The translations under genes were made by a program, and so were the position numbers. A DNA stretch of 64,000 nucleotides from Malacoraja senta (taxonomy: Eukaryota): the NCBI GenBank assembly GCA_038087875.1, contig CM075988.1:7814001-7878000 (forward strand), written 5' to 3'. Of the stretch, positions 7,766 through 62,136 are shown in pieces (positions within the stretch are counted from its first letter, which is position 1; the number at the start of each line of letters is the position of its first letter). The notes beneath the pieces are model-generated. The model made no database searches. It saw only the letters and a list, made by a program, of their open reading frames with translations, and was not told the origin of the DNA.

Positions 7766-8087
7766 ATTACTGAACTAGCAGGGTTCAATGAGTTAACAAT
7801 CAGACCTAGGTCTCAATTACTGATTGCAAAAGCTGAAAACGAAATGTGTCATAAAATTCTCATTTGCATATAATATTTAGTCTGCTTTACTTGTATTATT
7901 GGATTGATCTTCCTATATTATTTTGTCTATGTTTCCCTTATCGCTTTATTTGCCCTCACTGTGTCGTTTTGCCCCATTTGACTCTGGATTAATAAAACAG
8001 TATAACGTGAATACAGATTAGTTTGTGACAGAGGTTTCTAAAAAAGGGGGGAAAAAATCGTTATATTTGTGGTATATTTCTGTGCAG

Positions 8088-8185
8088 GTGGAACAATTTA
8101 CCAGCCGGTAACTATGGTAACCTCACAGGGTCAAGTGGTGACCCAGGCCATTCCGCAGGGTACTATACAGATCCAGAACACACAG
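8088..8185 (+). CDS. PKNOX2: PKNOX2 internal coding exon ((G)GTIYQPVTMVTSQGQVVTQAIPQGTIQIQNTQ)
   Basis: Acceptor tttctgtgcag|gt at 8087/8088, donor cag|gtgaga at 8185/8186; 98 nt, phase 1 to 0. Peptide matches my recollection of the vertebrate PKNOX2 segment YQPVTMVTSQGQVVTQAIPQG. Upstream exons were not found in the window. Confidence 0.95.
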
Positions 8186-10005
8186 GTGAGAGATTGTCAT
8201 TTTCTTTCAATTCCATGTATTTTCGGCTTTGAGAGGAAAGCATTAAAACCATCACGTCTGAAGCCTGAAGTATTTTGTGATTGAATTATGTCACCATGTG
8301 GTGCCAAGGGCTTCCTTACATCACGTTGAAAATTGGGCAGTGAGAAATCATGGGTTCAGTTGACTGTCTGACTTGGGGACTTACCTCTCACCAAAGGAGA
8401 AGAGGTACAGATCATGAGAGAGTATTGTGAACACCAGACTCGGGACAAGGTGATGGTTACATCCCCAGTGAAAATATCATTAATGCAGTGTTCTGACGTA
8501 ATTCCATTGAGATAATACTACATGTGTGAAAAATGGTTGAAGATGACTGGTGTCAGAATCTGTTGGGGCCCTGTGAAGATATTTATGAACTATATACAAT
8601 ACATGAGATCTGTCAGAAGAAGGGTCCTGTCCCAAAACGTCACCTTTCCAAGTCCTCCAGAGATGCTGCCTGACCCGCTGTGTTACTCCATCACTCTGTG
8701 CTCTAAAACATGAGATCTAATTATCACTTTGCTGTTCGGGAAATCATGATGTACACATTGGCTACCACCCTGTCTTCCAGCCTCAGTAGTTCAGATAATG
8801 AAATCTGCATCTGCAATAGCCACTTAAGGGTCCCGATCCAAAACGTCATGTCATTTCTTCATTATGCTACCTGACGAGTATCCACTATTCTTATGGTTTT
8901 ATTGTGCATGTCAAATTCGTCATAGAGTCATACTGCCCATGCCAACCAAAATGCCCCATCTACACTAGTCTCACCTGCTTGTGTTTGGCCATATCCCTCT
9001 AAACCTTTCCCATCCATGTACGTGTCCAAATGTCTTTTGAATGATATGTGCCATAATCACAAGCCCCTTGATCTCCCCACGCTCCTCCACCCACCCACCC
9101 CCCACCCCCCCACCTCCTCTGCCATGTTCCTTGCCTTCACGGCTGTCTTCACTATTGCTTCCATGAGGAGATCCCTTTAAACACTTCTTCACCTCCAGTT
9201 AATCGGCAAGTCCAGGGCAGTCACGCACTAAATGCAGCTCCATCGGTCCTCTTTAAGAGGAAAACATGCCATTGTGCAGCTTATTTCACTTTTTTGAATC
9301 CTTTTAGGATGTTCAAATGAGCAATAGCTCTCTATACAGCAAACGCTGACACCAAAAGAGGGTGCAATCCAACTTCTAGACACCTAGGTGCATAATCAAG
9401 TTATTTGGTTGGATATTCCATTTGGGATAATATCGCAATTTATTGCAATGTGTGAACAGTGACAGAAAACTGACACGGAATGTAATTATTGCAGTACCAT
9501 CCTGTACACCATTAACTGGATGGATCACACCAATTAAAAGAACGTTAATCACACCAAGGTTATCCTGCATTTATTTTCGGGCCATGAGTTCAGAGGAAGA
9601 ATGTGCTAGCTAGCTGTCAAATCTGAAGCAAAGTGACGATTTCTCATTGACTTTCACCAAATGATCCTGCATAGACACCTCATTATTTTTTTTGAATAAG
9701 TCGAATTCTGACAGAAATCTTTGTAAGTGCAACAATTCATTAGCACTTGCTGTGAGGCGATCACTTCAAGCCTCCGAGACTCTGGAGTAATTTAAGATAC
9801 CAAAAAAAATTACTTTATATAATGATGTAGTGCCTTAAAGTTGTCTTAATGATCATGGTGTCAGCAGAAATGTTCTGCATGATCAACTCTTACTGCATTG
9901 TTTGTGGAAGGAATTGGGGCCAATAGGGTGAAGAGATAAATCATGAGCCGGACATTCGTTGAAGGTCCGTCAAGATAGAAGCCCACACCGTTATCTCCCA
10001 CCTTT

Positions 10006-16291: not shown

Positions 16292-17790
16292 TGGGAGGGT
16301 GGAAGTGCAGGGTAATGCGAGAGTACAGACGGGTAAACAATAAAAGTAGCAGCGCTGGTTTATAAGGCCACTGAAAGCAAACCAAACACCACTGTCTACC
16401 TCCCTCAGTGAGATTAAGCACCATTTGTCAAGACTCTGCTTCGCTGCAGTGGCACCAAAAGCAAATCAAACTCTATGTGGCTCATTTTAGAGGAGTAGAA
16501 TTGCAAAGCATTAAAGTGCATTATAATGTTCACAGTTTCAAAAAGCATGAGGAGAAAAGATTGAAAAGGTATGTAGACAGTGTTACGTGAGCAATGCCCT
16601 ACATACTATGAATTAAGTGAATTGCAGAATCATTATGACACAGAAGGAAGCAATTTGCCCATTGAGTTTGTTATACGTTTTTGTAAAATGATCTGGTCAG
16701 TCTAATTCCATTTTAGGCCTAGGTTTCAAGGTTTCAAGGTCAGTTTATTGTCACATGTACCAATGGAAGGTCCAGTGAAATTCAAATTACCTATGTTACT
16801 TTCCCTCACGTGTCTATCCAATTCTCTTTTGGAAACCTGTTTTTTCACTCACTTTCAACTGTCAGATGTTTGCCCTCTTTAAATAATAGATTTTTTTCCC
16901 ATTGTCCCCTGTCTGTTTCCATGCACAGGCTTGCGTTTCTAGGTCCTTTGAACTATCCGCTAATTGTTTATCTGCCTATTCTATTTAAAAACGCCGTTAT
17001 AACTGTGCATTTGTATAGTGTCTTTGCATTGAAGTTTGTCCAACCATTAAATATGTTCATGGCCAAACTTCAGGTCGCCAAACTTTAGTTTAGTTTAGTT
17101 TAGAGATACAGCGTGGAAACAGGCCCTTCGGCCCACTGAGTCCTCCAATGATCCCTTCACATTAACACTACCCTACACACACTAAGGACAATTTACATTT
17201 ATACCAAGCCAATTAACCGACAAACCTGTACATCTTTGGGGTGTGGGAGGAAACCAAAGATCTCGGAGAAAACCCACGCAGGTCACGGGGAGAATGTACG
17301 AGCTCCGTACAGGCAGCACCCGTAGTCTTTCAAATCTTTATGAACATACTCTTTTAATACCACCTGTGGTCTAGCCCCCATAGCCCGTGTCCCCTTGATT
17401 GATGCTCACCCACTGGTGGAAACGTCACAACATGTATCTTATCGTTCTGTCTTAGGATCTCATGTTTCAAACAGATCACCATCATTCTTCTAAACTCCAA
17501 AGAATACAGATCTAACTTTCAGTCATCTGTTGCAGGAAATCCTCTCATCTCGGGGATTAACGCTGTGAATCTCTTCTGGACTGCCTACAATGCACTATCT
17601 TTTCTTAAGTAAGAGGAGGAAAATTGCATGGTTTACCATGTGCTGCCTAGCCGACATGTAATCGATATATCAATCAGTCAAACATCAAGATTTGCCTTCA
17701 ATAACCTTCCCTGGACATCCCTTTTCATTTTGCTCCGATTTACTAAATTTAAATGTTTTCCCATAATCAACGTTTAACAACCAACTTGTA

Positions 17791-25042: not shown

Positions 25043-25165
25043 GTGAATCTGGAGCTGACCTCTCTCCTACAGGATGGGGAAGACAAGAAGTCAAAGAGTA
25101 AACGCGGTGTGCTGCCCAAACACGCCACAAACATCATGCGCTCCTGGCTCTTCCAGCATCTTGTG
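25043..25165 (+). CDS. PKNOX2: PKNOX2 exon, start of TALE homeodomain ([41 protein letters not shown])
   Basis: ccag|gtg acceptor, gtg|gtgagt donor; 123 nt, phase 0-0. [20 protein letters not shown] is the PKNOX/MEIS-class helix 1. Confidence 0.97.
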
Positions 25166-40915: not shown

Positions 40916-42298
40916 ACTTTATCTACCTGCGACTCGACCTTCAAGGAACCATGCACCTGTACTCCTAGATCCCTCTGTTCTACAACACTACCCAGAGGCC
41001 TACCATTTACTGTGTACTGTAGGTCCTGCACTTGTTCGACGTCCCAAAATGCAACACCTCACACTTCTCTGTATTAAATTCCATCAACCATTCCGCCGCC
41101 CACCTGGCTAATCGATCCATATCCTGCTGCAATAGTTCACAACGTTCTTCACCATCTACAAAACCACTCACTTTTGTATCATCAGCAAACATGCTAATCT
41201 TGCCCTGTATGTTCTCATCCAAACCATTGATGTAGTTGACAAACAGTAACAGGCCCAGCACCAAACCCTGTGGCACACCACTAGTCACAGGCCTCCATTC
41301 TGAGAAGCAACCATCCACCATCACCCTCTGCTTCCTTCCATGGAGCCAATTTGCTATCCATTCAGCTGTCTCTCCTTGGGTCCCATAAGATCTAACCTGC
41401 CAAAGCAGCCTACCTTGCGGCACCTTGTCGAACACCTTACTGAAGTCCATGTACACAACATCTACAGCTCTGCCCTCATCAACCTTTTTGTTCACCTCTT
41501 CAAAAAAATCAATCAGATTAGTGAGACATGACCTCCCACGTACAAAACCATGCTGACTGTCAGTACTCAGCCCTTGCCTATCCAAATGCCTATATATCCT
41601 ATCCCTCAGAATACTCTCCAATAACTTACCAACTACAGATGTTAAGCTCACCGGCCTATAGTTCCCAGCATTTTCCCTGCAGCTCTCCTTGGAAAGAGGC
41701 ACAACATTTGCCACCCTCCAATCCTCTGGCACCTCTCCTATGTTTAAGGACGAGTCATAAATTTCAACCAGGGCTCCCGCAATTTCCTCTCTAGTTTCCC
41801 ACAATGTCCTCGGATATATCTGATAAGGCCCCGTTGATTCGTCTACCTTCAAACACGACAGTACCTTCAGTACTTCCTCGACGGTAACCCTGACTGCTCT
41901 CATGACGCTTCCAGTGACTGCTTCAATTTCCTCCGTCCTGCTGTCTTTCTCCTCGGTAAATACAGAGGAGAAATACTCATTGAGGACCTTGCCCATCTCC
42001 TGTGACTCCACACAGGTGATCACTTTTATTCCTGAGAGGTCCCACTCTCTAGTTATCCTTTTCCCCCTTACGTATTTGTAAAATCTTTTGGGATTGTCTT
42101 TTATGCTACCTGTCACAAGCTATCTCATGGCCCCTTTTTGCCCTTTGATCTCCTTTTTAGTTTGCTCCTTAGTTTCGAAACTCCTCTTGGGATGCACTTG
42201 ATCCCAGCTGCCTATACCTGTCCCATGCATCCTTCTTGTTTTTGACTAACGTCGCAATTTCCCTCGACAGCCAAGCTTCCTTACATTTGCCTGCTTTG

Positions 42299-44208
42299 AT
42301 TATTATTGATTGATTGATTGATTATACCTTTAATAATCCTTTGCAGGAAATTACAGTGCCACGACAGCTTCAAGACAGACATAACACCACACATTTCCTC
42401 AAATAGCTGCCATACTTAACAAGTTAAAATGCAAGTTAAAATACAAGTTAAAATACAATTAAAGAATAAAAAAGTGCAGTTTATTTATGCGCATTATATA
42501 ACCTTATAGCAGCTGGTAAACAGGACTTCCTATGTCTCTCAGTTTTTGCACATTGGTGCAATCAGTCTCTGACTGAAGATGCTGCTCTTGATCACCTTCA
42601 GGGCATGGAGTGGGTGAGTGGGGGTTGGTCATTATAGAACCCAGTTTGTTGAGAGTTCTGGCCTCTGCCACCTGCTGGACCGTTCGTTGCTCAGCCCCGA
42701 CCACTGAGCCGGCCTTCCTGATCAGTTTGTCCAGTCTGTGTTTTTGTCCGCTATGCGGGCGCCATCTCCCCAACAGGCCACCGCAAAAAACAGAGCACTG
42801 GCCACCACTGAATGGTAGACACTGCACAGTAGGGGTTGGCAGATGTTAAATGCCCTCAGCCTCCTTAAAAAATACAGTCGGCTTTGTCCCTTCCTGTACA
42901 CCGCCTCCATATGACACTTCCAGTCCAGCTCACTGTCAAGCTGCACACCAAGGTACCTGTGGTTAGCGACCACCTCCACCTCAGTGCCCTTAATGGTGAT
43001 TGGTGTTGCTTGAGTCCTCCTCCTCCCCCTCCTGAAGTCCACAACTATCTCCTTGGTTTTTGTGGTGTTAAGAAGGAGGTAATTGTGTGCACTCCACTCC
43101 ACAAAGTTACTTATTATGTCTCTATACTCCTCCTCATTGCCCCCTTTAATGAGGCCGACAACAGCTGTGTCATCCGAAAATTTCTGCAAAAAGCAGCTGT
43201 TGGTATTATATCGGAGATCCGCTGTGTAGATGGTAAACAGGAATGGAGCCAGCACAGTTCCTTGTGGAGCCCCTGTGCTGCTCAAGATGGTGCTTGAGAC
43301 ATTGTTGTTCTGTAGGCGCACGTACTGTGGTCTGAGGGAAAGGTAATCCAAACACCACAGTACCAGTGATGGATCCACTTTCATCTTCTCCATCTTCTCC
43401 ACTAGCAGTCGGGGCTGAATTGTGTTGAAGGCGCTTGAGAAGTCAAAAAACGTAATCCTTACAGATGCATCAGTAGTGTCCAAATGTGTGTACACCCTCT
43501 GCAGCATGTAAATGAGGGCATCTTCGACACTGATGTTAGGCTGATATGCAAACTGTAAAGGATCCATTTGATTTGACACACTAGTCCTGATGTAGGAAAG
43601 GACAAGTCTCTCAAATGTCTTCATAATATGTGAAGTGAGCGCTACTGGTCTGTAGTCATTGTGGTGAGTGGGATGGGTCTTCTTTGGGACAGGTACCAGG
43701 CAAGATGTTTTCCACAGCCTTGGAACCTTCTGTAGACGCAAGCTCAGGTTGAACAGGTGTGTTAGAATACCACACAGCTCTGAAGAGCAGGTCTTCAGTA
43801 GCCTTGGGCTGGTGTCATCAGGCCCCACTGCTTTCCCTGGCTTCAGTCTGTCCAGCATCATCTTGACCTGAGCAGTATGAAGAGTCATAGGTGGGGCTGC
43901 TGGTGGAGTGGGAGGTGGAAAGAGGGGACTCCGCACAGGTGACATCTCAGGAGTGATGGAGATGATGGAGAGAGGGAGGGGAGGTGGAGAGGAAGCAGCA
44001 ATGGTCAGCAGACCAGGTGGGGGAGGCTGGGGTGGTGTGGGGCAGTCAAATCTGTTGAAAAATCTGTTCAGATGATCAGCCAGACTCTGTTCACCATCAG
44101 GCAGTATACCACCTTTCTGCTTCATGCCCGTGATCTTTCGCATTCCAGCCCATACCTGCTTCACACCATCTTGTTGCAGCTGTCGTTCTAATTTGAGCCT
44201 ATAGGCTT
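42299..44208 (-). mobile_element. 5'-truncated Rex1/Babar LINE with near-intact RT, nested in the CR1
   Basis: ORF 42722-44260: KAVGPD, NDYRPVALTS, DPLQFAYQ, FFDFSSAFNTIQP, GAPQGTVLAP, QKFSDD; (CAAT)n tail near 42305-42323; ctttg duplicated at 42294-42298 and 44209-44213. Confidence 0.9.
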
Positions 44209-44277
44209 CTTTGCCCTTCACTCTAACGGGGACGTACACATCCTGAGCTTTCGTCAGCACACTTTTGAAAACATCCC

Positions 44278-44552
44278 TTTTTGTTTTCTTAGTGCACTTT
44301 TAGGACCGAGATGAGAAAATCATTTTTCACACAGAGAGTGGTGAATCTGTGGAATTCTCTGCCACAGAAGGTAGTTGAGGCCAGTTCATTGGCTATATTT
44401 AAGAGGAAGTTAGATGTGGCCCTTGTGGCTAAAAGGATCAGGGGGTATGGAGAGAAGGCAGGTACGGGATACTGAGTTGGATGATCAGCCATGATCATAT
44501 TGAATGGCGGTGCAGGTACTCCTGCACCTATTTTCTATGTTTCTATGTTTCT
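44278..44552 (+). mobile_element. Short CR1 3' fragment nested in the opposite orientation
   Basis: FFTQRVVNLWNSLP-coding sequence, (TTTCTATG)n tail, atccc duplicated at 44273-44277 and 44553-44557. Confidence 0.8.
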
Positions 44553-47859: not shown

Positions 47860-47936
47860 CATCCGTACCCGACAGAGGACGAGAAGAGACAGATCGCCGG
47901 CCAAACGAATCTCACACTCTTACAGGTCAACAACTG
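47860..47936 (+). CDS. PKNOX2: PKNOX2 exon, homeodomain core ([26 protein letters not shown])
   Basis: tctcctcag|cat acceptor, tg|gtaaga donor; 77 nt, phase 0 to 2; PYP TALE loop. Confidence 0.97.
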
Positions 47937-48980
47937 GTAAGAGCCACTTGAAATGTACGCCTCGTTGATGACAGATCGATAGAGTGCATTGTTTTATTTC
48001 CATACTTTAATGAGCCCATGTCATCCTTGGAGAAGAACACACTGACAGGAGAATAATGAGGTGTGGGAGAGCAGGGGTTACAAATTCTTGCTTCAGGCCT
48101 GCAAATTCAGTAATCTGATGGAAGAAATCCCCACTGACCTGGCTGAGGTCAGCTCATTCTGTACAGACACACTTCAGTTGAGAACCTTCCCTTTATATTT
48201 TTGATTTCAATAATTAAAGAATTTAAACCCGTGTTTTCAAGAGTTCTCATCGACTGACCCTGAATGTAACAAGGGTGTAATGCACAGTCAAGTGAGTAAT
48301 GTGACGTGGAAATCCTGGGATTTCAGTGGGATTTATTATATTGGGCTCTGCTCTCCTTTCTCAGATTGATAAACTCCTTAACTCTTCCAGACCTTTGTCC
48401 ATGTACGACGAATATATCAGGGATACTGTTTAATGTGATTATTAGGGATGTGCCTGGTAGACACAGAGCAGAGGAAATTCCTCATCTGCTGTTAAGAGAA
48501 GTACAGTTCAATATTAATTGAAATTTACAAGCTTGGTTTAATTTTAAAGTGTTTCCCTAGTAACAGCGGGCGAAGTCTTCCTGGGAATTTATGGCTAATC
48601 TTCATCTTCTGTCATCATGACAGAATGCGTGCTAAAGTATCCAGCACACTGGTCGGTGTGTCCATACATAACACTCCTGCTTTCTGACTGTTTGAATTAA
48701 ACTTTAAATCGAATTTGCAGATCACTTCTGGTTGGGGAAAGGTATGGCAGACAGAATCATTGAAATTTATGGCACAGGAAGAGGCCATTTGCCTGGCCAT
48801 GTCTACGTTTTAGTGTTTGGTTTTAGACATACAGCGTGGAAACAGGCTCTTCTCCGCACCGAGTCCGCACTGACCTACAATCACCAGTACACTACACAAT
48901 GGGAACAATTTACAGAAGCCTGCAAACCTGCATGTCTTCGGCATGTGGGAGGAAACCGGAGCACCTGAAGGAAACCCACG

Positions 48981-55390: not shown

Positions 55391-58300
55391 TCCTTACCCC
55401 TTCTGTCTCTCCACCAGTCCTTTGCCCCTTCCCACTCCCTTTTTTCTCCATTAAACAGTCCTATTGTCAAATTGCTCAACTTATTATGTTGCCCAGTGTA
55501 TATGAAACTATCCTTTCTCCAATATCTAGAAAGTGAAACATTGTCCTGGACTACGATTCATTTGGACGACGAAGCCGTATCCATTGGCATTAGAGGTTTT
55601 AGTTGAATCCTGTCTAATTCTGTCACCCAGTTGATTGTGATGAGCAGCCACAGAGTAGAAATGAGATTGAGATTTTATATTTTCTCAGTGAATTTAGTTT
55701 AGTTTAGAGCTACAGTGTGGAAACAGGCTCTTTGGCCCACCGAGTCCGCATCGAGCAGCGATCCCCACACACTAACACTACACTACACACTAGGGACAAT
55801 TGACATTTATACCAACCCAATTAACCTACAAACCTGTACGTCTTTGGGGTGTGGGAGGAAACCGAAGATCTCGGAGAAAACCTACATAGTGAGAACGTAC
55901 AACCTCCGTACAGACAGCACCTGTGGTCGGGATTGAACTCGTGTCTCTGGCGCTGCAAACACTGTAAGGCAGCAACTCTACCGCTGCACCACCTTTAGGT
56001 TGAAAGATGAAATCAACTTTCCTCATTTGTTCTTGTCTTCCTGAACATGCAACACAGCAGGATACAGGGGAAACAACGCTGGGTGTTTGCACAGATTCTG
56101 TGGGGCCTCACTGTAAAATAAAATTATTTGGCTCAGAGTTCTCTGGTATAATGGTATAATGTTCCTGCATATTTACCTCTCACTTTGGAAACGTAATAAT
56201 GGTGGTAATCTGACACTAACTGTAATTACCTCAGTGCCAATGGTTTATACCATTAAACACAATGCCGTGTGATTACACCAATTAAATCAATTTACTTTTA
56301 AAATAGAACAGGTACAGAACTGAAATCATACAACAGAATCAGTCTCTAGACGCCTCAGGATATTACATATGAAAATAATTTTACATATGAAATGCCATAT
56401 TCTGCACTAGCAGTTTTTAATATTTTGCAAGGCCACAGTGTCCATGATATACTAATCCTACAAATATTTCATGATGTAGCCCGGTGGCTGTATTAAAAGT
56501 CTTGGCTTTTGTTTCTGACTTCCCATTTATTATCTGTAAGATTATTGAAACAATCAGTTTGAGATGATGACATTGGATCAGCGAGGGCTTTTCCACTCTT
56601 TTCAAACCGAAAGAGTTTTGCGAACCTTCTCTGGAAAATGTCTGTAACCACCTTGTGCCCGTGGGATGTGTTTAAATCGGCAGCTGATAGTACAGTCAAG
56701 CGCTGCCATCTCTAGGAAGCTCGTGGTAAACCCAGTGTTGGTCTCATTGAATAAACCCGAACCATTTGCGAGATATAGAAACATGGAACTGCAGATGCTG
56801 GTTTATACCGAAGATCACCAACTGCTGGAGAAACTCAGCGGGTCACGCAGCATTTCTGGTGCAAAGAAATGGGTTACCTATTGTATAGGAAGGAACTGCA
56901 GAGGCTGGTTTAAACCAAAGATAGACACAAAAAGCTGGAGAAACTCAGCGGGACAGGCAGCATCTCTAGGGAAAAGCAATAGGTCACCTATCCATTTTCT
57001 CCAGAGATGTTGCCTGATCCGCTGAGTTTTACTTTAGACTTGGACTTGGAGATACAGCATGGAAACAGGCCCACCAAGTACGCACCACCCAGTGGTCACC
57101 CCATACACTAACAGTATCCTACGCGCTAGGGTAAATGTTACAATTTTACTCCTTTACTTTAGGTGACGTTTCGGTTCGGAAGAAGCCAACGAAGGGTTCT
57201 GACCTGAAATGTCCCTGTTGCTTTTCTCCAGAGATGCTGCTTGACCCGCTGAGTTACTCCAGCAGTTTGAGTCTAACCCAAACCAATTGAGAGATATAGT
57301 AACAAGAAACTGCAGAGTGTTTTGGAGTAACTCAGCAGATCAGGCTGCATCTCAGGAGAATATGGGCAGGTGACATTTCATGTCGGGACCCTTCTTCAGA
57401 ATGGAGAAGCCCTTGATCATGACCGATAATTACTCCAGCACTTTGTGTCTTCTTTCCCCAAAACATTTGAGCTACATGGAACTGCGGATGTTAAAATATT
57501 TAGAAAAACACAAAGTGCTGGAATAACTCAGAGGGCCAAATATTATTTGGGTCGGGACACTTCTTCAGACTGATTTGAGCTATTTGTTGGGCTACTGTCT
57601 TCAGCTGTTATATGGATTGAACTGCTCTGGCTTACGTGCCCTTGTGAAAATGCCAATGTTTTGTCACTACTTGTAAGGCCAATCATGTAATAGCTCATTT
57701 TAATTTATTGCTATTGTCAGCAGTGGTGGTGTGAAGCCAAGAGGTTGTCTCCCTCCGGTCTGGCCAGGCAGATCCTTTTCAAACCTGTCAACTCCTCATT
57801 GAGCTTCTCCTTTTCCAACTTTTTTACACAAAGGGTGGTGGGTATATGGAATGACATATGAAATAGGGAGGTAGGAGAGGCAGGCACTATCGCAACATTT
57901 AAGAACCATTTAGACAGGTACAAGGATAGGATAGGTTAAGAGGAAGATAGACACAAAAAGCTGGAGTAACTCAACGGGACAGGCAGCGTCACTGGAGGGA
58001 AGGAATTGGTGATGTTTCGGGTCGAGACCCTTCTTCAGATATGGGCTAAGTGCAGGCAGGTGGGGAATGTAGATGGGGAATGCTAGTCGGCGTGGGCAAG
58101 TTGGGCCGAAGGGCTTGTTTTTACACTATATGAGTATCACTGTATAACTGCTGACATCCTCCGTCGCTAGTAATCTACCAGCATCTGACCTTCAACTCAC
58201 CGACCTGTCACCCATTGAGCCAGCGGCCTTTTAGAAAATCAGGTTTATTGTTTCCAATTCCTTGACTATTCTCCTAAAATTCATGGTCTTAGGGTTTGAC

Positions 58301-60544: not shown

Positions 60545-60720
60545 GTTCATTAACGCCAGGCGACGTATACTGCAGCCAATGCTCGATGCCAGTAATCCTG
60601 ACCCAGCTCCCAAAGCTAAGAAAATCAAATCCCAGCACCGGCCGACTCAGCGCTTCTGGCCCGACTCGATTGCAGCTGGCGTTCTCCAACAGCAAGGAGG
60701 CAATCCCAGCAACCCGGACA
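60545..60720 (+). CDS. PKNOX2: PKNOX2 exon, helix 3 and post-homeodomain region (FINARRRILQPMLDASNPDPAPKAKKIKSQHRPTQRFWPDSIAAGVLQQQGGNPSNPD)
   Basis: ctgcag|g acceptor completes the TGG codon (WFINARRR), donor a|gtaagc; 176 nt, phase 2 to 1. DASNPDPAPKAKKIKSQHRPTQRFWP fits PKNOX2 rather than PKNOX1. Confidence 0.97.
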
Positions 60721-61903: not shown

Positions 61904-62136
61904 GCACAATGACCACTGCCATGGACAACCTGCAGACTCTCTCCTCCGACACGGCCACCCTTGCCATGCAGCAGGCCATGATGGCCGGCCACGCGGGCGA
62001 CGACTCACTGGACGGGACGGACGAGGAGGAGATAGAGGAGGATGAGGAAGAGGAGGAGGAAGAGGACGACAATGGGGAAATGCAGACGACCAATGTAAAC
62101 GACCTGGGCCTGGACAATAGTGACTCGCTGGACTAA
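61904..62136 (+). CDS. PKNOX2: PKNOX2 terminal coding exon with acidic tail (…MDNLQTLSSDTATLAMQQAMM…EEEEE…LGLDNSDSLD*)
   Basis: cttccag|gc acceptor, phase 1 matches the previous exon, TAA at 62134-62136; resembles the PKNOX2 C-terminus. Confidence 0.95.

What the first reader, a model, noticed from the sequence alone, without database searches (positions are those of the whole stretch)
9470..9538. Two homologous homeodomain-site-rich non-coding elements 47 kb apart in different introns
9470-9538 (ctgacac-ggaa-tgtaatta-ttgcagtacca…accattaa…gatcacaccaattaaa) aligns colinearly and in the same orientation with 56210-56286 (ctgacac-taac-tgtaatta-cctcagtgcca…accattaa…gattacaccaattaaa). Motif blocks (TGACA, TAATTA, CATTAA, CAATTA) are kept while spacers diverge, and neither copy belongs to a repeat family I recognise here. 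TGACA(G) is the MEIS/PKNOX/TGIF site, and a full TGACAG lies at 9460-9465. Inference: duplicated (shadow) enhancers, possibly autoregulatory, or an ancient exapted repeat.
Basis: partly seen in the sequence, partly recalled or inferred. Interest (0 to 1): 0.7.

Follow-up and report, generated by a model that had tools for sequence, protein, structure and literature searches.

The report
Twin enhancer-like elements in skate PKNOX2
Two short, similar stretches in different introns of a skate developmental gene look like an old duplicated gene switch, which is a known kind of thing; their function and age are untested.

Summary
The window is the 3' half of a skate-like PKNOX2 gene. The two stretches (9467-9538, 56207-56286; different introns, same strand) align at 56 of 80 columns. 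That is chance-level under blastn scoring (99 of 120 shuffles reach it) but beats 118 of 120 and 120 of 120 shuffles under scorings suited to diverged DNA, so the likeness is probably, not certainly, real. There is no third copy in the window, no flank homology, no Rfam match, no shared fold and no protein tail derived from either copy. Close relatives hint at constraint on both copies, weakly for B (p 0.07). Conservation beyond close relatives could not be tested. The TALE/autoregulation reading is not supported: TGACAG is in A only, and there is no PBX-PREP decamer. The longest shared block fits a published homeodomain-T-box composite matrix (ranks 1 and 3 of 69,266 sites, matrix chosen after the fact), and A sits in the window's densest ACACC cluster. 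Best reading (0.5): an old, locally duplicated T-box/homeodomain enhancer core. Rivals: ancient low-copy repeat (0.22), chance or convergence (0.22). Locally duplicated enhancers are a known, common class.

The parts
9467..9538 (+). Element A core, in the intron after the exon at 8087-8185
56207..56286 (+). Element B core, in the intron that splits the homeodomain (between exons ending 47936 and starting 60545)
9524..9537 (-). Homeodomain-T-box composite-like site in A; rank 1 of 69,266 unmasked sites for the BARHL2_TBX4 matrix (matrix chosen after the fact)
56272..56285 (-). The same composite-like site in B; rank 3 of 69,266
9470..9488 (+). Shared 5' block in A: CTGACAC, four bases, TGTAATTA (TALE or T-box half-site next to a homeodomain core)
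56210..56228 (+). Shared 5' block in B
9341..9690 (+). Wider region around A with six ACACC words, all on +, the densest such cluster in the window. It includes a near-palindrome at 9380-9391 and an exact TAAT[TG]AGGTGT site ending at 9685 on the - strand. Not shared with B.
9460..9465 (+). TGACAG (TALE-type site), in A only
9383..9466 (+). Weak upstream extension of the alignment (to 56106-56206), seen only under looser scoring; the B side is not conserved in relatives (8 differences in 101 bp in run X6)
8087..8185 (+). PKNOX2 coding exon upstream of A
25043..25165 (+). PKNOX2 coding exon with the start of the homeodomain; skipped in some annotated isoforms
47860..47936 (+). PKNOX2 homeodomain exon upstream of B
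60545..60720 (+). PKNOX2 exon with the end of the homeodomain, downstream of B
61904..62136 (+). PKNOX2 last coding exon

Best explanation
A and B descend from one short enhancer core that was copied within the PKNOX2 locus long ago. The flanks have since diverged beyond recognition, and selection has kept the transcription-factor blocks. The core probably works by cooperative binding of a T-box factor and a homeodomain factor at the shared 3' composite site, with further homeodomain sites and a TGACAC half-site upstream, giving PKNOX2 two partly redundant intronic enhancers. A has extra T-box words and is probably the larger, stronger element. Shown: the likeness, the intron positions, the motif content and weak constraint among close relatives. 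Inferred: common descent, enhancer activity, the binding factors, redundancy, and PKNOX2 as the target.
For: The pair beats 118 of 120 and 120 of 120 shuffles under 1/-1 and 5/-4 scoring and is the best non-repeat pair left in the masked window (next best 24 and 155, against 26 and 172). In three related organisms the share of A's 33 sampled words is 0.52, 0.48 and 0.46. Divergence measured on the B stretch predicts 0.29, 0.13 and 0.26 (simulated P 0.08, 0.004, 0.11 with substitutions only). In run X6 the B core shows 1 difference in 80 bp against 28 in 500 bp of flank (p 0.07). Both displayed core differences fall in columns where A and B already differ. No deletion shows in the core bins in the 3 of 4 runs that cover it. 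The composite site ranks 1 and 3 of 69,266. PKNOX2 is rich in conserved non-coding sequence and several of its elements drive reporters in zebrafish (PMC10337857). pknox2 and tbx18 share the mandibular arch mesoderm in skate (PMC8476176). [quoted passage not shown]
Against: Chance-level under blastn scoring (99 of 120 shuffles; E 3.5). Pairwise E 3e-5 to 6e-4 misses the preprint's mouse cut-off of 1e-8 and meets its fly cut-off of 1e-4 only for the tightest pair of stretches. No flank homology within 5 kb. Transitions are 7 of 16, little above the one third expected at random. The conservation data cover close relatives only (4-6% divergence). The runs were selected as the best holders of A, they share ancestry, and only 40 of 90 difference rows were shown. 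X13 does not cover the B core. The matrix was picked after the fact: A and B rank only 41-740 with the other 3 of 4 matrices tried, and the commoner homeodomain-T-box seeds seen are one base longer or in the other order. There are no activity or chromatin data.
Confidence: 0.5

Rival explanations
1. A and B are two relics of an ancient low- or mid-copy repeat family (UCON/Eulor-like, or the end of an old retroelement) inserted independently, and possibly exapted as enhancers.
For: Homology has sharp limits and no flanks. About 36% of the window is repeat by self-BLAST. Seven other weak pairs scoring 34-42 remained after masking, some inside RT-bearing fragments, so faint repeat relics are common here.
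Against: A profile of the two copies finds no third copy in 64 kb (next E 6.8). In four whole runs of 1.5-2.0 billion letters no extra piece was laid on the B core at 80% likeness, although the same call picked up a 41-bp, 80% look-alike nearby; the tool's seed sensitivity is unknown. The two copies share no hairpin.
Confidence: 0.22
2. There is no common descent: the likeness is chance, or convergence of two AT-rich elements that need the same factor sites.
For: Not significant under blastn scoring. A window-level P near 0.01 will occur by chance in a scan of many windows. A motif-less pair scores 155 against 172. A 22-base pattern built from the shared blocks found two unrelated bacterial matches in metagenomes.
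Against: Shuffles that keep local 3-mers and 4-mers reached the score in only 1 of 80 (1/-1) and 0 of 80 (5/-4). Five blocks are in the same order and orientation, four of them with near-identical spacing. Both ends of the pair, not just one, show hints of constraint.
Confidence: 0.22
3. Both are cryptic alternative last exons (branch-point-like CTGAC, a YAG 21 nt later, and an ATTAAA poly(A)-like signal) that make homeodomain-less or homeodomain-truncated PKNOX2.
For: The arrangement is in both copies, and the in-frame reading stops after 6-7 residues. Homeodomain-less isoforms are known in the TALE family (recalled, from no call).
Against: No polypyrimidine tract, unlike the real acceptors. 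0 of 125 proteins carrying the upstream exon have the A tail; 146 of 146 with the homeodomain exon continue normally. Many of those proteins were found with a downstream exon, which biases against truncated forms. No RNA data were examined.
Confidence: 0.03
4. They are autoregulatory TALE (PBX-PKNOX/MEIS) elements.
For: TGACA is shared, and TALE seeds in CAP-SELEX read TGACA followed by any base. Two TGACAG lie within 9330-9700.
Against: TGACAG is absent from B. None of the 9 one-mismatch PBX-MEIS decamers in the window lies in A or B, and there is no exact one. The DLX-MEIS spacing is not met.
Confidence: 0.08

Closest known systems
Shadow enhancers born by local duplication (Ness, Kosztyo, Wunderlich, bioRxiv 10.64898/2026.06.26.734851; abstract and passages read)
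   Same: Two short homologous non-coding stretches at one developmental gene; about a third of mouse enhancer-hit pairs also lack flank homology.
   Different: Much more diverged (70% over 80 columns; their fly hits had a median of 93%), below their mouse cut-off, and no activity shown.
Duplicated CNEs / paralogous CNSs (PMC2781166, PMC3595034; passages read)
   Same: Short, block-wise conserved non-coding homologues at a developmental transcription-factor gene.
   Different: Those lie beside paralogous genes from whole-genome duplication. Here both copies are inside one gene, and fish-mammal conservation is untested.
Homeodomain-T-box composite motifs (Xie et al. 2025, PMC12119339; passages and rows of Supplementary Table S3 read. 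Jain et al. 2018 not held, known only from citations)
   Same: The shared 3' block has the spacing of the BARHL2_TBX4 representative matrix and scores near its maximum (11.9 and 10.7 of 13.7).
   Different: It is one base shorter than the ARX/DLX-TBX seeds seen, and which factors bind is unknown.
Intronic PKNOX2 accelerated conserved elements (Trigila et al. 2023, PMC10337857; abstract, first part of section 6, sections 8 and 9 and passages read; supplement not readable)
   Same: Same gene; intronic elements, some with enhancer activity in zebrafish ear, lateral line, brain and heart.
   Different: No internal duplication, T-box grammar or shark data in the main text. Whether A or B is orthologous to a tested element could not be checked.
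Ancient conserved low-frequency repeats, UCON/Eulor (PMC5753468; passages read)
   Same: Short, old, dispersed similar non-coding pieces.
   Different: Only two copies are seen, and no library comparison was possible.

Membership tests
Duplication-born shadow enhancers | Both elements are enhancers of the same gene with overlapping activity | not testable with these tools
   No reporter, ATAC or ChIP data available
Duplication-born shadow enhancers | Enhancer-body homology by BLAST (E <= 1e-4 fly, <= 1e-8 mouse) | tested here: inconclusive
   E 2.8e-5, 1.1e-4 and 6.1e-4 for three stretch sizes with the preprint's settings: meets the fly cut-off in 1 of 3 and the mouse cut-off in 0 of 3; no cut-off is calibrated for skate
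Duplication-born shadow enhancers | Flank homology (supporting, not required) | tested here: not met
   No hit at E <= 1 in the 5' flanks; only chance-level 13-30 bp hits (E 0.26-0.91) in the 3' flanks
Duplicated CNEs (dCNEs) | Copies lie near paralogous genes from whole-genome duplication | tested here: not met
   Both copies are in introns of one PKNOX2 gene; a third copy at PKNOX1 could not be looked for
Duplicated CNEs (dCNEs) | Conserved between fish and mammals | not testable with these tools
   No vertebrate genomes held; only close relatives seen
Conserved non-coding element | Slower evolution than neighbouring intron sequence | tested here: inconclusive
   A: simulated P 0.004, 0.08, 0.11 in three selected relatives. 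B core: p 0.07 in X6, and p 0.14 over all displayed rows
Ancient repeat (UCON/Eulor-like) | Many dispersed copies | tested here: inconclusive
   No third copy in the window and no extra piece on the B core in 4 runs at 80% likeness; families below 80% would be missed
Ancient repeat (UCON/Eulor-like) | Match to a Dfam/Repbase consensus | not testable with these tools
   No such library on hand
TALE (PBX-PKNOX/MEIS) element | TGACAG or the PBX-MEIS decamer in both copies | tested here: not met
   TGACAG in A only; 0 of 9 one-mismatch decamers lie in A or B
Homeodomain-T-box composite site | High score with a published composite matrix | tested here: met
   Ranks 1 and 3 of 69,266 with BARHL2_TBX4; not high with the other 3 of 4 matrices tried; chosen after the fact
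Homeodomain-T-box composite site | Cooperative binding of the two factors | not testable with these tools
   Needs EMSA or ChIP
Structured non-coding RNA | Rfam match or shared secondary structure | tested here: not met
   0 Rfam matches at gathering score; consensus fold -0.35 kcal/mol with 0 compensatory pairs of 5
Alternative last exon | Protein isoforms ending in the predicted tail | tested here: not met
   0 of 125 and 0 of 146 proteins; RNA reads not examined

The most novel reading that the evidence does not exclude
A and B are an intragenic enhancer duplication older than the shark-bony fish split. Both copies have been kept for over 400 million years, with a homeodomain-T-box composite site as their fixed core, driving PKNOX2 in a shared ancestral domain such as jaw-arch mesoderm or sensory hair cells. 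They would be a within-gene counterpart of duplicated CNEs that genome-wide BLAST screens are too insensitive to see.
Probability: 0.17. Interest if true: 0.58.

Novelty: new member of a known kind. Interest (0 to 1): 0.32.

Why it matters
If real, the pair is a natural experiment on enhancer grammar: two copies under one gene that kept five motif blocks while spacers and flanks decayed, which points to the bases that matter and gives a direct reporter test in skate or zebrafish. It would add a candidate T-box input to PKNOX2, a gene tied to hearing and to jaw-arch mesoderm. It does not open a new class, since local duplication is a documented and common origin of redundant enhancers, and here neither activity nor deep conservation is shown.

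Tried and rejected
The window's own genome is not held, so there is no genome-wide copy count. A candidate third copy at 17592-17788 (-) lacks the motif blocks and scores within the null. A pattern scan of metagenome contigs gave 2 matches, both in bacterial DNA without the other blocks, so it says nothing on vertebrate orthologues. RNA structure: 9383-9560 folds with z -3.2, but 9330-9700 gives z -0.95 and no fold is shared with B; rejected. A duplicated coding exon is unlikely: the 8 gap columns (1+1+6) break the frame, and tblastn of 7 PKNOX2 proteins gave no hit at A or B. Neither copy is in a tandem repeat. Run X13 does not cover the B core; the tool says a hole proves nothing. Earlier scan findings: none by place, sequence or words. 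Literature: ten searches listed no paper describing this pair. The library lacks most subscription papers, Jain et al. 2018 is not held, and the supplement of PMC10337857, which may show whether A or B matches a tested element, could not be read. Only part of the 281 TBX21/TBX4 rows of Xie et al. Table S3 was seen. Passages of PMC11190573, PMC13384253, PMC5909433, PMC12632746 and 10.1101/2021.09.23.461564 were read and added only pointers.

Full report
Context. The window holds the last five coding exons of PKNOX2 on the + strand: 8087-8185, 25043-25165, 47860-47936, 60545-60720 and 61904-62136. The exon at 60546 is 100% identical to shark and ray PKNOX2 proteins. The last exon is 97% identical to Amblyraja radiata and Leucoraja erinacea proteins, against 86-92% for four others, so I infer a skate. 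About 36% of the window is covered by self-BLAST repeats. No whole genome is held. Element A lies 1.3 kb after the exon at 8087-8185. Element B lies in the intron that splits the homeodomain.

Observation. The core alignment 9467-9538 vs 56207-56286 has 56 matches, 16 mismatches and 8 gap columns in 80. Under blastn scoring this is chance-level: E 3.5, and about 1.9 such pairs per shuffle in 60 shuffles. That scoring is tuned for closer sequences, so I ran exact Smith-Waterman over the whole window. For this I masked the self-BLAST repeats and eleven further stretches (RT fragments and residual repeat-like pairs seen), leaving 36,182 bp. In 120 shuffles that keep local 2-, 3- or 4-mers, the best pair reached the observed score in 99 (blastn 2/-3), 2 (1/-1) and 0 (5/-4); fitted P 0.002-0.03 for the last two. 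An earlier run of 6 shuffles per scoring on the less masked sequence agreed. Without B, the best real pair scores 32, 24 and 155, against 33, 26 and 172. I read this as probably real, at about the 1% level per window, not corrected for the choice of scoring or the size of the scan.

Copy number. A profile of the two copies finds no third in the window (next E 6.8), and 5 kb of masked flank on each side shows no homology. A candidate at 17592-17788 lacks the blocks. In four whole public runs laid on 55994-56753 at 80% likeness, no extra piece fell on the B core, while a 41-bp look-alike at 56433-56473 was picked up in 2 of 4 runs. This argues against a high-copy family but not against an old low-copy one.

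Constraint. Twenty of 23 listed runs, from eight coded organisms, hold part of 9330-9700. I laid 4 of them on the B stretch. They are close relatives: 30 other letters in 760 (X1), 49 in 760 (X6) and 31 in 735 (X8); X13 covers only the 3' part. With these rates as a yardstick, A should keep 0.29, 0.13 and 0.26 of its words; it keeps 0.52, 0.48 and 0.46 (simulated P 0.08, 0.004, 0.11; with listed indels 0.025, 0.002, 0.08). These runs were chosen as best holders of A and share ancestry, which inflates the effect. For B, 40 of 90 difference rows were shown. The rows for X6 appear complete up to 56573 (my inference from their order) and give 1 difference in the 80-bp core against 28 in 500 bp outside (p 0.07); all displayed rows give p 0.14. 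The two displayed core differences, 56248 and 56266, fall in columns where A and B already differ. The upstream extension of the alignment is not conserved on the B side (8 in 101 bp in X6). Conservation in sharks, chimaera or bony vertebrates could not be tested; the metagenome scan gave two bacterial chance hits.

Grammar. Both cores are rich in TAAT words (7 and 11 against about 2 expected). The TALE reading is weak: TGACAG at 9460 has no counterpart in B, no PBX-MEIS decamer lies in either element, and the spacer from TGACA to TAATT is 7 nt against 3 nt in the DLX1_MEIS3 seed. TGACA itself is shared and remains a possible monomer site. The longest identical block reads, on the - strand, TAATT directly followed by GGTGT. 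Xie et al. 2025 report frequent T-box-homeodomain interactions. Their BARHL2_TBX4 representative matrix has this spacing and ranks A and B first and third of 69,266 unmasked sites. I chose that matrix after seeing the motif; three others tried rank the elements 41-740, and the ARX/DLX-TBX seeds are one base longer. Around A there are six ACACC words in 9330-9700 against 0.7 expected, the densest cluster in the window. There is also a near-palindrome at 9380-9391 resembling the Brachyury site (resemblance recalled) and one of the window's two exact TAAT[TG]AGGTGT sites. B lacks this wider cluster. In skate, pknox2 and tbx18 both mark the mandibular arch mesoderm (PMC8476176, passages); in zebrafish, pknox2 is expressed in ear and neuromasts (PMC10337857). 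Either could be the domain; this is inference.

Other readings. There is no Rfam match and no shared fold. Both copies contain a branch-point-like word, a YAG and an ATTAAA, which could make a short last exon and a homeodomain-less protein. But there is no pyrimidine tract, and 0 of 125 and 0 of 146 proteins carry such a tail (biased towards full-length forms).

Known kinds. Redundant enhancers with duplication signatures make up 33.9% of mouse and 18.3% of fly shadow sets (10.64898/2026.06.26.734851). With that preprint's BLAST settings the pair gives E 3e-5 to 6e-4: borderline for its fly cut-off and short of its mouse cut-off. Classical duplicated CNEs lie beside paralogous genes (PMC2781166, PMC3595034), which is not the case here. 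So the pair works most like a duplication-born shadow enhancer pair, but membership is unproven because activity is untested. Ten literature searches listed no report of this pair. The unreadable supplement of PMC10337857 may bear on whether A or B is already a tested element.

Verdict. The likeness is probably real. The most likely explanation is an old local duplication of a T-box/homeodomain enhancer core in PKNOX2 (0.5), with an ancient low-copy repeat (0.22) and chance or convergence (0.22) as rivals. The TALE reading (0.08) concerns which factors bind and overlaps with these. It is a new candidate of a known kind; interest 0.32.

Noticed in passing
window 25043-25165: This exon carries the N-terminal arm and first helix of the homeodomain. 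It is skipped in frame in 21 of 125 PKNOX2 proteins retrieved, including annotated isoforms of at least 12 sharks and rays and of some reptiles: a possibly conserved isoform with a broken homeodomain. These are annotation models, not checked against reads.
   Followed up: partly
window 9341-9690: Densest cluster of ACACC (T-box-like) words in the window, all six on one strand, with a near-palindrome at 9380-9391; may be a larger enhancer than the shared core.
   Followed up: partly
window 56433-56473: A 41-bp piece is matched at about 80% by another locus in two related organisms, with similar loose ends in both; an old repeat or chance.
   Followed up: no
window 41007-42119 (-) and 42722-44299 (-): Two open frames with reverse-transcriptase domains (Pfam RVT_1), pieces of non-LTR retroelements; the second also hits the short ALKBH8_N model.
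   Followed up: no
window 48044-48054: The window's other exact TAAT[TG]AGGTGT homeodomain-T-box composite site starts at 48054, about 120 bp after the homeodomain exon, in unique sequence.
   Followed up: no
window 9383-9560: Folds more stably than shuffles (z -3.2), but the effect vanishes with wider limits (z -0.95) and is not shared with B.
   Followed up: yes
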